A model generated the notes under the pieces. It was given only the letters and a program-made list of their open reading frames with translations. It did not search any database and was not told the DNA's origin. 26,679 nucleotides of DNA from Octopus sinensis (Eukaryota), in NCBI RefSeq assembly GCF_006345805.1, contig NW_021834721.1:1-26679 (forward strand), written 5' to 3'. This document shows, one piece after another, positions 101-19,889 of the stretch. The translations under genes and the position numbers were made by a program. The stretch's first letter is position 1, and every line of letters starts with the position of its first letter.

Positions 101-461
101 GTTTGTTTCAGTCATTTGACTGCGGCCATGTTGGGGCCCCACCTTTAGTCGAACAAATCGACCCCAGGACTTATTCTTTGTAAGCCTAGTACTTATTCTA
201 TCGGTGTCTCTTGTCGAACTGCTAAGTTACGAGGACGTAAACACACCAGCATCGGTTGTCAAGCGATGTTGGAGGGACAAACACAGACACACACATATAT
301 ATATACGACGGGCTTCTTTCAGTTTACGTCTACCAAATCCACTCACAAGGCTTTGGTCGGCCCGAGGTTATAGTAGAAGACACTTGCCCAAGGTACCACA
401 CAGTGGGACTGAACCCAGAACCATTTGGTTGGTAAGCAAGCTACTTATCACACGGCCACTA
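101..461 (-). mobile_element. tRNA-derived SINE family A (CORE-like CCTTGGGCAAGTGTCTT, internal CA/TA microsatellite)
   Basis: Near-identical to copies at 1289, 17367, 21670 and 24549; head GTGGCTGTGTGGTAAG..GGTTCAGTCCC, tail GACTGAAACAA. Confidence 0.85.
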
Positions 462-6590: not shown

Positions 6591-6924
6591 CGAGACCCCC
6601 TTCGGTCATGAATGACCGTGGGATTGCACCTAGAAAGTTACCCTCCCAGGCACAAGTCCGGGCAAGGTGGTTTATGGAAGACCAGCAGTCGCCCATGTAT
6701 ACTCGCCTCCCCTCACCACGCCACCAGTATTATCCAAGGGAAAGGCAAAGGGGCCGAGACAGCTTGGCACCTGTGACGTCACAACTCATTTCTACAGCTG
6801 AGTGAACTGGAGCAACGTGAAATAAAGTGTCTTGCTCAAGAACACAACACACAGCCCGGTCCGGGATTCGAACTCACAACCTCACAATTGTAAGCTCGAT
6901 GCTCTAACCACTGAGCCATGCACC
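6591..6924 (-). mobile_element. tRNA-derived CORE-like SINE, family D
   Basis: A box TGGCTCAGTGG, B box GAGTTCGAATCCC, then GTGTTCTTGAGCAAGACACTT; 11-bp TSD TTCTATAGCAT (6580-6590 and 6925-6935). Confidence 0.87.
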
Positions 6925-7259
6925 TTCTATAGCATAGGAAGTAACTAAAAGGGTTGTTGACAAGAAAGGCATCTAGCCATAAAACACAGCTTCGAAAGAC
7001 ACATCCAACTCATGCTAGCATGGAAAAGCAGACATAAAAGAATGATGGTGCCACTGCTGTTACTAGGTTTGTACCACCCCCTTAAGACCCAACTACACTC
7101 TAGCTGAAAAATATAGAATGCCTCATAAGTAATATAAACATCCTAAATTCAGTGGCGGCGTTAATGAAGATGTTACGCGATAACTTCATGTCTTAAACTT
7201 ATCTTTATTAATGTGTCTCAAATTATACATCGATATAGACAAGATTTACAAAGATATAA

Positions 7260-7622
7260 CCATTCGAGCGTGATCATTACCAGCATCGCCTTACTGGTAC
7301 TTGTGCCGGTGGCATGTGAAAAAGCATTTGAGCGAGGTCGTTGCCAGTGCTGCTGGACTGGCTCCTGTGCAGGTGGCACATAAAAAACACCATTTGAGCG
7401 TGGCCGTTGCCAATACCGCCTGACTGACCCTCGTGCCAGTGGCACGTAAAAGCACCCACTACACTCTCGGAGTGGTTGGCAATAGGAAGGGCATCCAGCT
7501 GTAGAAACTCTGCCAGATCAAGACTGGAGCCTGGTGCAGCCATCTGGTTTGCCAGTTCTCAGTCAAATCATCCAACCCATGCTAGCATGGAAAGCGGACG
7601 TTAAACCATGATGATGATGATA
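7260..7622 (+). mobile_element. RTE 3'UTR fragment
   Basis: Three internal repeat units, conserved 3' block and (GAT)n. Confidence 0.83.
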
Positions 7623-7855
7623 ACAGTTAGAACTTGTGATCTGCCCACGGACCTTTTTCTTTGGAAATTTTTGCCTGCCGCCCTAAAATGTTTCCTCACC
7701 CCTGCCCTACATCAATGATTTCACATTTTAATACAATGTAGCACATTAGACATGGGGACAGTCAAATATGAGTACACGAAAATCAGTTAAATATGATGCA
7801 AATAATAAAAAAGAAATTCAAGCATAACAGATATAACAAGTGAAAGAAACTTTAC

Positions 7856-7922
7856 CCCAGAATAACGAATTCATGGCGTAAACAGCAACTAAATTCAGCT
7901 TAGCTTGTTCCAAAGGGGTGAA
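7856..7922 (-). CDS. C1D: C1D coding exon 2
   Basis: Acceptor tgtttttcag|TTC; FTPLEQAKLNLVAVYAMNSLFW+G (67 nt) matches the Sas10/C1D motif PLEQAK.dLv.aY..NS.FW; donor G|gtaaag, phase 1. Confidence 0.95.
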
Positions 7923-7999
7923 CTGAAAAACACAAAGAGGTAAATGAAGTTCTTAACATATTTTCCAGTAAATAATATTAAAGCTTCTTATCATTATCA

Positions 8000-8530
8000 A
8001 AATCAAAGTGAAATTCGATGACGGGCACGAGCACCATACGAGTGTGATCATTGACAGAGCGGCTAACCGGCTTCCGTGCCAGTGACACATAAAAGTCACC
8101 ATTCGAGTGTGACCGTTACCAACTTCGCCTTACTGGCACTTGTGCCCCTTGCTAGTAGGGTGCTAAGAGCACCATCTGAGTGTGATCGTTGCCAGAGCGG
8201 TTAACTGGCTTCCGTGCCGGTGGCATGTAGAAGGCACCATTTGAGCAGGATCGTTACCAGCATCACCTCACTGGCACCTGTGCCGTTGGCATGTGTAAAA
8301 AGATTCGAGGGAGGTTATTGCCAGTATGCCTGACTGGCCCCCATGCTGGTGGCACGTAAAAGCACCCACTACACTCTCGGAGTGGTTGGCATTAGGAAGG
8401 GCACCCAGCTGTAGAAACTCTGCCAGATCAACATTGGAGCCTGGTGCAGCCATCTGGTTCGCCAGCCCTCAGTCAAAACGTCCAATCCATGCTAGCATGG
8501 AGAGCGGACATTAAACGATGATGATGATCG
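8000..8530 (+). mobile_element. RTE 3'UTR fragment
   Basis: About five internal repeat units, conserved 3' block and (GAT)n. Confidence 0.83.
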
Positions 8531-8744
8531 TCATCATCATCATCACAGAAGATCTCTCAATGGAATGTGATGAGGAGTAAAATCTGGAGGTAAAAGAACT
8601 GAAGTATGTCCCACCACCACTACCTGCTTACATACAAAATCCGAATTAGCTATATAGTAGCTTATTTAGATCTTGCTGTAAGCTACTACACAGTATGGTC
8701 ACTGCTGATGATAATAACATATTCTCTTCAGTGGTACCAACTTA

Positions 8745-8974
8745 CAAAAGGCGGTGAGATGGTAGAATCGTTAGCACGCCGGGCAAAATGCATAGCCGTA
8801 TTTCGTCTGCCGTTAGGTTCTGAGTTCAAATTCCGTCGAGGTCGACTTTGCCTTTCATCCTTTCAGGGTCGATAAATTAAGCACCAGTTACGCACTGGGG
8901 TCGATGTAATCGACTTAATCCATTTGTCTGCCTTGTTTGTCCTTGTTTAGCCCCTTGCGGGTAATAAAGAAATA
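8745..8974 (+). mobile_element. SINE family B monomer
   Basis: Same head, core and tail; 12-bp TSD GGTACCAACTTA (8733-8744 and 8975-8986). Confidence 0.88.
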
Positions 8975-9539
8975 GGTACCAACTTATATGAGGAACTGGA
9001 CCAATGAGAATTAAATGTCCTTTGCAGTGAGGAAATAACATTAGCTCAATGATTAATATCATTTTAATCATTTTGGCAAGTATGGGTGACAACTCCAAAT
9101 ATGTTTCTGCCTCGTTAGAACTCCTCAGCAAAACAGACCTTCACTGGAGTCACCAAAGTAATGGTGAGAGAATCACTATTAGATGTATGATATTGTACGT
9201 GAATGGAAGTGAAAAATTAGAATATTTTAAAAAATAAATCAGAAATTAATTACTCGGCAATATCATTCGTACTTCCGATATTATCTCCTCCTCTACATCT
9301 AAAGTTCAAACCCCATCTACATCAACCTTGTCTGAGTTAACAAAAAAATAATCCTGCCATGGTTAATTTTGCCACTTTGTCTTTCATCCTTCTGGGATGA
9401 AATAATAATAAAGTATTAAGTACTGTGGTCTTTTGTATCAACTAGCCCAATCCTATGAAAACTTTCAGCCCTGTGTCTAAATAAAAAACAATTATTATTA
9501 TTGTAATTAAGGCAGTGAGCTGGCAGAATCATTGGCAGA

Positions 9540-9707
9540 TAGGCACAGGAGTGGCTGTGTGGTAAGTAGCTTGCTTACCAACCACATGGTTCTGGACTCA
9601 GGCCCACTGCGTGGCACCTTGGGCAAGTGTCTTCTACTATAGCCTCGGGGCCAACCAAAGCCTTGTGAGTGGATTTGGTAGATGGAAACTGAAAGAAGCC
9701 CATCATA

Positions 9708-9751
<44 letters not shown>

Positions 9752-9818
9752 TGTGTGTGTATATGTTTGTCCTCTCAACATCGCTTGACAACCGATGCTG
9801 GTGTGTTTACGTCCCCAT
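9540..9818 (+). mobile_element. SINE family A (3' part missing) nested in a family B remnant
   Basis: Family A head and body, flanked by a B head (9509-9538) and a B core (9820-9885). Confidence 0.8.
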
Positions 9819-10055
9819 ATTGCCCTTCATCCTTTCAGGATTGAAAAAATTAAGTACCCGTTGCATACTAGGGTCGATCTAATTGACTGCGCCCCCTCCC
9901 CCAAAATTTCGAGCCTTGTGTCTAGAGTAAAAAAAAAAATTATTATTCCCTAGTTGTTGTTTAGAACCAGGTTAGCTCTGCTCATGCAAATCTACAACGG
10001 AAAATAGTAATAAAAAAGATTATGGAGACGGATATATATCAATTTTGCTAAATAT

Positions 10056-10273
10056 TAGTGTGTGTGAAAAGTTACTGGCTTTAGGGGTGTCACGAACGGT
10101 CTGGCCGGAGGCTCAACCTTCTGAGTCTTTTATGGGGCTTACAAAACCTGAAGGACCACTGCAATAAGCGTGTAAATCTGAGAAGGGAGTATATTGAATA
10201 AAACTATAATTAACTGATCCTTTTGTATTTTCTTTTAACCAAAGCCAGGAACTTTTCAGCACCCCCTCATGTA
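10056..10273 (+). mobile_element. Mariner-derived non-autonomous element
   Basis: Inverted TGAAAAGTT.CTGGCTTT (10065-10082 and 10241-10258); internal remnant GLQNLKDHCNKRVNLRREYIE* (10136-10201) resembles the mariner transposase C-terminus; TA at the right end. Confidence 0.7.
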
Positions 10274-10567
10274 TGTATACATGTGTGTGTGTGTGTGCAC
10301 AGGCGTGCACACTGATGTTTTCCTTATTACAGTATATGCACAGTAAAGACCAGTTTATTAAAGATATCTCAATGTTTTCAGTAATTGTGGAGTTTAATTT
10401 TGGCGTCTGATTAAAACGAAAGTAAAATTTTGAACATAGAAAATAAAAAAAAATAAAAAACTGAAACGATGAAACGTACTAATAAATCCGGTTAATACTT
10501 GAATCGTTATTGCATATTTTTATTTGAAGATATTTAATACGAATAATTTCCAGAAACGAGGTACTAC

Positions 10568-10745
10568 TTAAGAAGAGTGGTCCCGGTGCGCGCACTCGCA
10601 CATCCGCGCTACACATCCTACAACGACTATCTAGCAAAATAAATAATTTTTTAAAAACAAAGTAAATAAAGCACAAAAACACAAAGTAAGGATCGACTAG
10701 CTAGTGCGGATGCGCGAGTACGCGCACCGGGACCACTCTTCTTAA
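10568..10745. mobile_element. MITE with GC-rich inverted arms and TTAA ends (Kolobok-like)
   Basis: Arms 10568-10611 and 10702-10745 match at 41/44; TTAA on both sides with GA...TC termini inside; A-rich spacer. Confidence 0.8.
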
Positions 10746-11014
10746 TATTTCATCTGCGTTTACTATTTTTTTTTTTTTTTCGCCTTCAGATTTTTAATTT
10801 AACCGCACCTTAACATATGGCTCAGTTAATTGGGTTGAAGTAAACATTAACCAATTGTTGCTTATGTTTTTTTCTGTTAATCATTAATAAGTTTGATTAC
10901 TTTCGTTATTTATTTTTAAGCCATTTTATTTTACCAACCACAGGATCGATTTCTATAGTGAAGAAAGACAAAATAATCGATTAAATTGACTCCCAGTATT
11001 TATTATTATATCGA

Positions 11015-11427
11015 AAGGCGGCGAGCTGGCAGAATCGTTTGCACGCCGGGCGAAATGCTTAGCGGTATTTCGTCTGACGTTAAGTTCTGAGTTCAAATTC
11101 CGCCGAGGTCGACTTTGCCTTTCATCCTTTCAGGGTCGATTAAATAAGTACCAGTTACGCACTGGTGTCGATATAATCGACTTGACCCCTTTGTCTGTCC
11201 TCTCTGTGTTCAGCCCCTTGTGGGTAGTAAAGAAATAGGTATTTCGTCTGCCGCTACGTTCTGAGTTCAAATTCCGTCGAGGTCGACTTTGCTTTTCATC
11301 CTCCTGGGGGTCGATTAAATAAGTACAAGTTACGCACTGGGGTCGATATAATCGACTTAATCCGTTTGTCTGTCCTTGTTTGTCCCCTCTCTGTTTAGCC
11401 CCTTGTGGGTAGTAAAGAAATAGGTAT
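11015..11427 (+). mobile_element. Dimeric SINE, family B
   Basis: Full monomer to about 11240, second body from GGTATTTCGTCTG; TSD TTATTATATCGA (11003-11014 and 11428-11439). Confidence 0.88.
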
Positions 11428-18456: not shown

Positions 18457-18546
18457 TTATTGAGTAGCTTTAGATTTCCCTTTAGCTGATTTTTTGTCTC
18501 TTTTCTTCAAACCATCCATGTTGCCTTTCAAAACATTGATATATGC
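18457..18546 (-). CDS. SRP14: SRP14 exon 5 (terminal)
   Basis: Acceptor ttctttccag|GCA; AYINVLKGNMDGLKKRDKKSAKGKSKATQ*, with the conserved NMDGLKKRDKK motif; TAA at 18459-18457. Confidence 0.96.
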   Translation of the reverse strand, partial: AYINVLKGNMDGLKKRDKKSAKGKSKATQ

Positions 18547-18653
18547 CTGGAAAGAAAGAAGCAAGAAAATATTACAGTTCTATATTTAAGAGATGAGGAA
18601 TTACGTACATTATTTACATTCGACAGATATTTGTCCTCATCTTGTTTGTTGTT

Positions 18654-18699
18654 AACACAACGTTTCGGCTGGTATACCCTCCAGCCTTCTTCAGGTGTC
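18654..18699 (-). ncRNA. Minimal type I hammerhead ribozyme motif (intact core)
   Basis: Minus strand reads GACAC-CUGAAGA-A-GGCUGG(AGGGUAUA)CCAGCC-GAAA-CG-UU/GUGUU: stem I GACAC/GUGUU, 6-bp stem II, palindromic ACGU helix III. Predicted cleavage after 18659. Confidence 0.75.
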
Positions 18700-18995
18700 T
18701 TGGGGAAATTTCGAGCCTGGGTTCTCATTCCTAAGGTATTTTTCGATGTTATCATTATTATTATTATTATTATTCAGGTCACTGCCTGGAATCGAACTCG
18801 GAATCTTGAGGTTAGTAGACCGCGCTCTTAACCACTACACCATATGCCTGTGAGCATATGGCATAGTGGTTAAGAGTGCGGGCCACTAACCCCAAGATTC
18901 TGAGTTCGATTCCAAGCAGTGACCTGAACAAAAACAACAGTAATAACATCGAAAAATACCTTAGGAATGAGAACCCAGGTTTGAAATTTCCCCAA

Positions 18996-19041
18996 GACAC
19001 CTGGTGAAGGCTGGAGGGTATATCAGCCGAAACGTTGTGTT
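18996..19041 (+). ncRNA. Second hammerhead motif copy with mutated core (CUGGUGA)
   Basis: GACAC-CTGGTGA-A-GGCTGG(AGGGTATA)TCAGCC-GAAACGTT-GTGTT. The invariant A of CUGA is G, so this copy is probably inactive. Confidence 0.6.
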
Positions 19042-19889
19042 AACAACAAACAAGATGAGGACAAATATCCGTCGAATTTAAATAATGTATGAAAATATTA
19101 ATTTTGGAACAAACGCAGGGGAGAAAATTAACAGTGAATATATTAGCAAACAAATACTGATGTGTATGATATCAGAAACAGATTATGTAATGGATATTAA
19201 TCTGGTGGGGGAAAAAAAATGACAGACTACAGAGAGCCAATTTTAACCCTTTTGATAAACCCCACTTGGGATTACTCCTAAAAGCTTCAATTTTAACCCT
19301 TTCAATACCAACCCACTAGAGACTGCTCCTAAAAACTTTATCTTGAAGTGAGCATCGTTTCTACAGCTGGATGTCTTTTCTAATGCCAACAACTTTACAG
19401 AGGTTGGGTGCTTTTACGTAGCACTGGCACAAGACACTTGCAGGACAATCCTCCTAACAGGGGCAGCAGCCTTAACACTTCTGCTGTTGAGTACAGGCCT
19501 TCTTGAGTACTGTCAAACATCGCAGTCTTCTGTTATTTTGTCTGAAAGGGTCAGCATCCTGAGGTCAACCTTCAGTATTTCATGTGATTTCTTCAGGGGA
19601 AATCTCATCTTTAATCATGTGTTCATGTTATGAGATGTTGTAAACCCTTATAAAATATGTAACACATCAACATCGCTAAGACCCCCAGTACTTGTGTTTT
19701 TTTAAGCCTGGTACTTATTTTATCGGTCACTTTTGCTGAACTACTAAGTTACAGAGACATAAGCAGAGCAACAACAGTTGTCAAGCAGTGGTGAGGGACA
19801 CGGGGACACACACACATAATAATTTGGAATGTTTTATCTCCTGGATGTATGACTTGATATGGACCGTCGTAGGGTGACTGGAGGGGATC

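What the first reader, a model, noticed from the sequence alone, without database searches (positions are those of the whole stretch)
18575..19090. Palindromic tRNA-headed, hammerhead-carrying retro-element (Penelope-type architecture) in the last SRP14 intron
Seen in sequence: about 240-bp inverted arms (roughly 90% identical by eye, mostly transitions) around a 6-nt loop. Each arm reads outward as tRNA-like A/B boxes, an (AAT/AAC)n linker, a hammerhead motif and a 3' end. Only the minus-strand unit has an extra 31-nt tail, and the whole is flanked by a 10-bp TSD, so it inserted as one unit. Established: Penelope-like elements carry minimal hammerheads in their pseudo-LTRs and often integrate with an inverted 5' copy and a short 3' tail; schistosome Sm-alpha repeats combine a tRNA-type promoter with a hammerhead. 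Inference: a Pol III-driven, self-cleaving, non-autonomous element mobilised by a Penelope-like RT, with divergent promoters and a fold-back form. I do not know of a description of such a family in cephalopods, but cannot exclude that it is already in repeat libraries.
Basis: partly seen in the sequence, partly recalled or inferred. Interest (0 to 1): 0.85.

Follow-up and report, generated by a model that had tools for sequence, protein, structure and literature searches.

The report
Penelope retrotransposon ends with tRNA-like promoter

Summary
In detail: inverted arms (91% identical), a 31-nt tail on one arm, a 10-bp target duplication, A/B boxes and a minimal hammerhead, in the last SRP14 intron. 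The reading needs correcting. The arm is not a separate non-autonomous family. It is the pseudo-LTR (pLTR) of an autonomous Penelope-like element (RT + GIY-YIG) in this genome. Copies run from the ORF stop into the arm and from the arm into the ORF. The 'hammerhead + 3' end + tail' are the ORF's first 51 codons. Head-to-head pairs usually have one end at each of two fixed sites (40 of 52), the known Penelope signature. The unusual part is that this pLTR starts with a tRNA-derived head, which was absent from 28 related elements with a 3' flank. About 90% of copies that reach the head stop there, which likely marks the RNA's 5' end. ORF copies share no run of four T's (about 3 expected, p about 0.03). 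This fits Pol III transcription, but a TATA box 31-35 nt upstream fits Pol II as well, and RNA reads showed no discrete start. Verdict: a new variant of a known kind.

The parts
18565..18574 (.). left target-site duplication (10 bp)
19091..19100 (.). right target-site duplication (10 bp)
18575..18848 (-). pLTR copy 1 (unit positions q1-q274), ending at the distal fixed end site
18575..18605 (-). 31-nt tail (q244-274), ORF codons about 42-51, between the two fixed end sites
18575..18728 (-). first 51 codons of the autonomous element's ORF (ATG at 18728)
18653..18700 (-). minimal type I hammerhead motif inside the ORF start, core intact; predicted cut between 18659 and 18658
18748..18774 (-). 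(AAT)n linker; 7-239 nt long across 71 copies
18773..18848 (-). tRNA-derived head; A box 18842-18832, B box 18799-18788
18848..18853 (.). head-to-head junction, a decayed GCCC-(2 nt)-GGGC hairpin
18854..19090 (+). pLTR copy 2 (q2-q243), ending at the proximal fixed end site, no tail
18854..18926 (+). tRNA-derived head; A box 18859-18869, B box 18902-18913
18927..18947 (+). (AAC/AAT)n linker
18967..19089 (+). first 41 codons of the ORF, with a stop at codon 6 in this copy
18995..19042 (+). minimal hammerhead motif with core change at 19004
18457..18546 (-). host context: last SRP14 coding exon; the 3' splice site lies 27 nt from the insert
   Evidence: search motifs recalled

Best explanation
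The insert is two solo pseudo-LTRs of an autonomous Penelope-like retrotransposon of this genome, joined head to head inside one target duplication, and the tRNA-derived head of that pLTR likely marks, and likely drives through Pol III, the start of the element's RNA. Shown: the full element is head, (AAT)n, ORF (hammerhead in codons about 12-24, RT, GIY-YIG), stop, 30-nt spacer, then the pLTR again; copies end at q243 or q274 and mostly begin at the head. Inferred from the anole element PAc: the protein dimer nicks both strands of AT-rich DNA about 10-14 bp apart and starts reverse transcription at two internal sites in the ORF's 5' region, one cDNA from each site. Each cDNA runs to the RNA's 5' end or stops earlier, and the two 3' ends join at the small head hairpin. 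At this locus the two cDNAs likely came from two different RNA molecules. Solo products lack the RNA downstream of q274 and are predicted to be dead ends. Odds: identity as pLTRs of the autonomous element about 0.95; two-site priming about 0.8; Pol III makes the template RNA about 0.45; Pol III RNA also serves as the mRNA about 0.2.
For: 30 of 30 loci picked with the upstream 121 nt continue into the arm, and that upstream DNA encodes RT and GIY-YIG motifs. All 30 fetched loci (of 57 matches) found with a foreign PLE protein belong to this family, and 21 of them carry the arm after the ORF. 13 of 30 loci picked with the ORF's N-terminal region show the arm running directly into the ORF. RVT_1 hits on 2 of 4 ORF pieces. 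The C-terminal region is 43% identical to P0047, which scores as GIY-YIG. The best fold match is telomerase TERT. 40 of 52 head-to-head pairs have one 243-type and one 274-type end. TSDs of >=8 bp in 26 of 39 such pairs against 5 of 195 mismatched-flank controls, 8-18 bp, 77% AT. Same haplotypes in 73 solo and 54 ORF-linked arms; the arms of one locus differ at the q159 transversion in 9 of 33 pairs against a 1.4% per-site background. Only 7 of 73 arms that reach the head continue upstream, while about 20% are lost per 75 nt elsewhere; both ORF-bearing copies that reach the head from the ORF side stop there too. No T4 run is shared by more than 4 of up to 38 copies along the ORF; about 3 expected, p about 0.03. 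Homologue P0001 keeps the hammerhead-encoded peptide at its N-terminus.
Against: A TATAA lies 35-31 nt upstream of q1, overlapping the ORF stop, so Pol II predicts the same 5' boundary. The T4 gap is one family's statistic: 3 of 62 related ORF stretches also have none, and G4 runs are also few. RNA reads from three raw-read runs of a related organism showed no strand bias and no start or end pile-up at the head or the hammerhead site (library strandedness unknown, part of the head masked). Arms within a locus are concordant more often than chance (24 of 33 at q159), so same-template or fold-back events also occur. An uncapped Pol III RNA would be a poor mRNA (established knowledge). No intact full-length copy was seen, and L192's ORF itself has no Pfam hit.
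Confidence: 0.8

Rival explanations
1. Same element, but an ordinary Pol II promoter: the TATA box at the ORF stop drives a capped RNA starting just before the head, and the tRNA module is a captured SINE head riding passively in the 5' UTR.
For: TATAA at -35 to -31. TATA/Inr motifs are described in rotifer Penelope pLTRs (PMC3846280). 3 of 18 related hammerhead-bearing 3' flanks have a TATA upstream. A head plus (AAT)n looks like a SINE insertion. The protein needs translation.
Against: The A and B boxes match consensus while the cloverleaf stems are broken. No donor SINE with this head and another body was seen among 30 head-selected loci. The ORF is T4-free. Copies that begin at the head have lost the TATA but keep the boxes.
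Confidence: 0.45
2. One reading: a separate non-autonomous, Pol III-driven, self-cleaving palindromic family that is copied by a Penelope RT in trans.
For: Solo arms far outnumber ORF-linked ones among head-bearing copies (66 of 73). Solo arms are slightly more alike (90.8% against 88.5%), though they were picked as top hits to the window's arm.
Against: The whole arm is present in the autonomous element. No fixed difference separates solo from ORF-linked arms. Arm lengths vary freely. Ends are always re-cut at the two internal sites, which needs ORF RNA beyond q274; PAc needs the first 172 nt of its ORF (PMC11167929).
Confidence: 0.07
3. The second arm is made by fold-back: one cDNA self-primes on the small head hairpin and copies itself.
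For: The junction hairpin is frequent. Arms are concordant at diagnostic sites above chance (15 of 18, 13 of 15, 24 of 33 and 27 of 33). Self-priming was proposed for Penelope palindromes (PMC3846280).
Against: This locus is discordant at q63, q77 and q159. Many pairs are asymmetric, with either arm truncated. The second arm ends at a fixed site (q243), which copying of DNA would not give.
Confidence: 0.15
4. A cut-and-paste foldback or MITE element with long terminal inverted repeats.
For: Long inverted arms with a TSD.
Against: TSD length varies from 8 to 18 bp, the ends are unequal, and the arm is part of an RT-encoding element.
Confidence: 0.01

Closest known systems
Penelope/Poseidon-clade PLEs (PAc of Anolis, PMC11167929; Pen2a_Av of Adineta, PMC3846280)
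   Same: RT then GIY-YIG in one ORF; the pLTR holds the first codons; inverted 5' pLTR; 31-nt tail; 9-10 bp TSD; hammerhead overlapping the ORF start; two end sites inside the ORF.
   Different: Here the pLTR begins with a tRNA-derived A/B-box head and an (AAT)n linker. The pLTR promoters in the passages I read are TATA/Inr or internal promoters linked to an intron.
Minimal hammerheads of metazoan PLEs (Cervera and de la Pena 2014, PMC4209133)
   Same: Extra base between positions 9 and 10.1, G10.1-C11.1 pair, palindromic 15.2-16.2, short helix I; that paper also notes pairs 100-700 bp apart on opposite strands.
   Different: No difference in the motif; cleavage was not tested here.
TRIMp3: Cassandra, Helenus, Ajax (Kojima 2024, PMC10886601)
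   Same: A small-RNA-derived Pol III-type promoter inside the terminal repeat of a retroelement, possibly from a SINE insertion.
   Different: Those are short non-autonomous LTR elements, and the paper argues that autonomous partners must use Pol II. Here the module sits in an autonomous, ORF-bearing PLE.
Schistosome Sm-alpha SINE-like repeats and animal non-LTR retrozymes (PMC6765202; PMC7229834; bioRxiv 10.64898/2026.07.22.740005)
   Same: Pol III-type promoter next to a hammerhead (Sm-alpha); homology to PLE pLTRs (retrozymes).
   Different: Those are non-coding head-to-tail tandems, mostly with canonical hammerheads. This is a head-to-head pair with a minimal hammerhead that is part of a coding element.

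Membership tests
Penelope-like element (canonical EN+) | single ORF with a telomerase-related RT followed by a C-terminal GIY-YIG | tested here: met
   (GIY-YIG by 43% identity to P0047 and by hits in 20 of 42 alignment members; L192 alone has no Pfam hit)
Penelope-like element (canonical EN+) | pLTR after the ORF that repeats the ORF's first codons | tested here: met
Penelope-like element (canonical EN+) | inverted 5'-truncated copy plus 30-40 bp tail on one end | tested here: met
   40 of 52 pairs; 31-nt tail
Penelope-like element (canonical EN+) | variable-length TSD in AT-rich DNA | tested here: met
   26 of 39 against 5 of 195 controls
Penelope-like element (canonical EN+) | minimal type I hammerhead motif in the pLTR | tested here: met
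   (9 of 11 pairs with two-sided change; 7 of the 9 rows were picked by a pairing filter, so partly circular); the motif is also in 18 of 28 related 3' flanks by a filter without pairing
Penelope-like element (canonical EN+) | hammerhead self-cleavage | not testable with these tools
   needs an in vitro assay
Penelope/Poseidon clade | no zinc-finger linker between RT and EN (present in Neptune/Nematis) | tested here: met
   short linker without Cys/His motif by inspection; criterion from PMC8557442
Penelope/Poseidon clade | RT tree placement with named references | not tested
   no named reference sequences were held
tRNA-derived SINE | tRNA-related head with A and B boxes | tested here: met
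tRNA-derived SINE | independent non-coding family with its own body and tail | tested here: not met
tRNA-derived SINE | Pol III transcription | tested here: inconclusive
   indirect only:
Non-LTR retrozyme | head-to-tail tandem non-coding monomers | tested here: not met
   pairs are head to head and the unit codes for the ORF start
Non-LTR retrozyme | small circular RNA | not testable with these tools
   standard RNA-seq only
Foldback/MITE DNA transposon | fixed short TSD and equal terminal inverted repeats | tested here: not met

The most novel reading that the evidence does not exclude
An autonomous, protein-coding Penelope retrotransposon has swapped to an RNA polymerase III life cycle: a tRNA-derived internal promoter in its pLTR starts a roughly 3-kb RNA whose ORF has been kept free of T4 terminators, and that uncapped RNA is both template and message, with the (AAY)n leader and hammerhead serving translation or processing.
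Probability: 0.2. Interest if true: 0.8.

Novelty: new variant of a known kind. Interest (0 to 1): 0.45.

Why it matters
The palindrome, tail and hammerhead are textbook Penelope features, and this locus is a decayed copy. What may be new is the promoter. Pol III-type heads are known from short non-autonomous elements, and Kojima (PMC10886601) argues that autonomous partners must use Pol II. A tRNA-headed, T4-free autonomous PLE would be a direct test of that limit. It would also offer an origin for tRNA-bearing non-autonomous Penelope-type repeats, which earlier unchecked notes of this scan describe in other animals. Separately, two subfamily haplotypes let one test in genome data whether the inverted arm comes from a second RNA, an open step in PLE integration.

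Tried and rejected
Rfam and ARAGORN at default gave no tRNA or hammerhead hit. ARAGORN at relaxed score called 23 of 92 heads against 0 of 460 shuffles, but the same setting gives many spurious calls on long loci, so I rely on the HMM test. The best of 27 tRNAs was Arg(TCT), narrowly, from an incomplete set, so the parent tRNA is not assigned. A search for a second PLE family in this genome as a control returned only this family among 30 fetched of 57 matches. An independent 'head + (AAT)n' SINE was rejected: the three head-only loci examined are interrupted in the linker by unrelated DNA. No pile-up of 5' truncations at the hammerhead cut site. No RNA holder on record was listed; raw-read runs showed abundant, strand-symmetric reads that track copy number, read as passive transcription. 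PDB sequence search: nothing. Pfam SRP14 search: nothing. One TATA-counting pattern matched nothing because it was too strict; the TATA is read from printed copies. Ten paper searches showed no description of a tRNA-headed pLTR or of this family; a 17-nt head motif was absent from the one supplement searched. Repbase and Dfam could not be searched, so the family may be in them.

Full report
Observation. The arms align over 240 nt with 218 identities, 17 transitions and 5 transversions, and a 10-bp duplication flanks the whole. I number the tailed unit q1-q274 (window 18848 to 18575); the plus arm covers q2-q243. The insert lies in the last intron of SRP14, 27 nt from the 3' splice site; the exons were found with recalled motifs.

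Family. Searches with parts of the arm gave 865-1,686 candidates each, which are lower bounds; 40 were scored and 30 fetched per search. Copies end sharply at q243 (or q249 when a 9-nt repeat is doubled) or at q274. Of 52 head-to-head pairs, 40 have one end of each kind; either arm can be 5'-truncated at any point. TSDs of 8-18 bp were found in 26 of 39 such pairs, against 5 of 195 controls. This is the arrangement described for Penelope-like elements (PMC8557442, passages; PMC3846280, passages), including the 31-bp tail and 9-10 bp TSDs.

The autonomous element. Some copies continue upstream of q1. A search with that upstream DNA gave 30 loci, and all 30 continue into the arm. The DNA encodes RT motifs and a GIY-YIG region and stops 30 nt before q1. 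A search with the ORF's N-terminal region gave 30 loci, 13 of which show the arm running straight into the ORF. The ORF starts at q121, so the hammerhead (core from q155, predicted cut after q190), both end sites and the tail are coding sequence. A foreign PLE protein found only this family among 30 fetched loci, 21 with the arm behind the ORF. Two of four ORF pieces hit RVT_1. The C-terminus is 43% identical to a protein that scores as GIY-YIG. The model (pLDDT 90) matches telomerase TERT best. The RT-EN linker has no zinc finger, which points to Penelope/Poseidon; no tree was built. Copies are 83-88% alike on average, and none seen was intact. The closest homologue (54%) keeps the hammerhead-encoded peptide.

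No separate non-autonomous family. Four linked sites define two subfamilies, both present in 73 solo and 54 ORF-linked arms. Only two sites differ in frequency, both CpG-type and not fixed. In the anole element, reverse transcription starts at two internal sites in the ORF, the tail is the stretch between them, both DNA strands are cut and extended, and 172 nt of ORF RNA are needed (PMC11167929, parts 1-2 of 4 read). By inference, solo arms arise when priming at q243 and q274 runs back to the RNA's 5' end, and they cannot be copied again. Arms of one locus agree more than chance, yet 9 of 33 differ at a transversion with a 1.4% background, and the window's arms differ at three sites. At least some palindromes, this one included, therefore likely used two RNAs.

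Hammerhead. The motif has the features listed for minimal PLE hammerheads, and opposite-strand pairs 100-700 bp apart were already noted (PMC4209133, passages). Across 9 sequences, 9 of 11 pairs show two-sided changes and 0 of 500 shuffles reach the covariation score, but 7 rows were chosen by a pairing filter. A pairing-free pattern finds the motif in 18 of 28 related 3' flanks. The core is intact in 107 of 211 arms, consistent with neutral decay. Cleavage was not tested.

The tRNA head. 76 of 92 heads score >=5 bits on a tRNA profile, against 0 of 460 shuffles. The boxes match consensus and the stems are broken. Among 80 related loci from metagenomes, of which 28 have a 3' flank, the only strong tRNA hit lies upstream in L283 with an unrelated body, so the head is specific to this family in this sample. 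Only 7 of 73 arms that reach the head continue upstream, against about 20% loss per 75 nt further upstream. Both ORF-bearing copies that reach the head stop there. I infer that the RNA starts at about q-8 to q1, 7-15 nt before the A box.

Which polymerase. For Pol III: boxes at the right distance, and a sense strand with 443 T3 but 27 T4+ runs in 69.5 kb from 40 copies, none shared by more than 4 copies. Codon resampling expects about 3 in a 2-kb stretch (p about 0.03; 12 stretches gave p 0.03-0.44). In 62 related ORF stretches, observed T4 runs (468) match or exceed expectation (422), and 3 have none. Against: a TATAA at -35 to -31 predicts the same start for Pol II, G4 runs are also few, and three RNA-seq runs of a related organism gave 7,800-11,300 laid reads each with no strand bias and no start pile-up. 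I put Pol III for the template RNA at about 0.45 and for the message at about 0.2.

Literature. Read: bioRxiv 10.64898/2026.07.22.740005, parts 1-3 of 5 (its supplements are closed); passages of PMC7229834, PMC6765202 and PMC10886601; a supplement search of PMC8557442. Ten searches showed no tRNA-headed pLTR. Repbase, Dfam and most subscription papers were out of reach. Three earlier scan notes describe tRNA-bearing non-coding Penelope-type repeats in other genomes; I did not check them.

Verdict. The palindrome is a known product of Penelope integration and belongs to an autonomous family, not a new non-autonomous class. The tRNA-derived head at the inferred transcription start of an autonomous PLE is a variant I could not find described. 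Interest 0.45.

Noticed in passing
window 6856-6930 (-) and 399-439 (-): Other tRNA-derived heads (36 and 11 bits); the first has a different body, probably an ordinary SINE family.
   Followed up: partly
window 18547-18575: The insert sits 27 nt from the 3' splice site of the last SRP14 exon, next to the pyrimidine tract, and can fold as a 250-bp hairpin in the pre-mRNA; effects on splicing or RNA editing were not examined.
   Followed up: no
window 18575-19090: Each arm has a mixed haplotype (head of one subfamily, body of the other), which could reflect a flip of the centre by recombination between the arms.
   Followed up: partly
L309, L310, L313, L320 near the head: The (AAT)n linker (7-239 nt) is often interrupted by other repeats.
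   Followed up: partly
P0001 residues 17-40: A homologue from another source keeps the peptide encoded by the hammerhead; the D/E polymorphism in this family falls on the free base of the CUGANGA core, so both codes are satisfied.
   Followed up: partly
head q5-q13 in ORF-linked copies: A three-codon upstream ORF (Met-Ala-stop) lies at the very start of the head.
   Followed up: no
L201-L204: Four near-identical near-full-length copies with the same flanks on different contigs: duplication or redundant assembly.
   Followed up: no
L244 3001-4906: A related PLE ORF without T4 runs but with a T-rich 3' region and no tRNA head.
   Followed up: partly
window-wide: Several other dispersed repeat families of 100-250 nt in 3-8 copies each, for example 90-460, 8747-8940, 7418-7618.
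   Followed up: no
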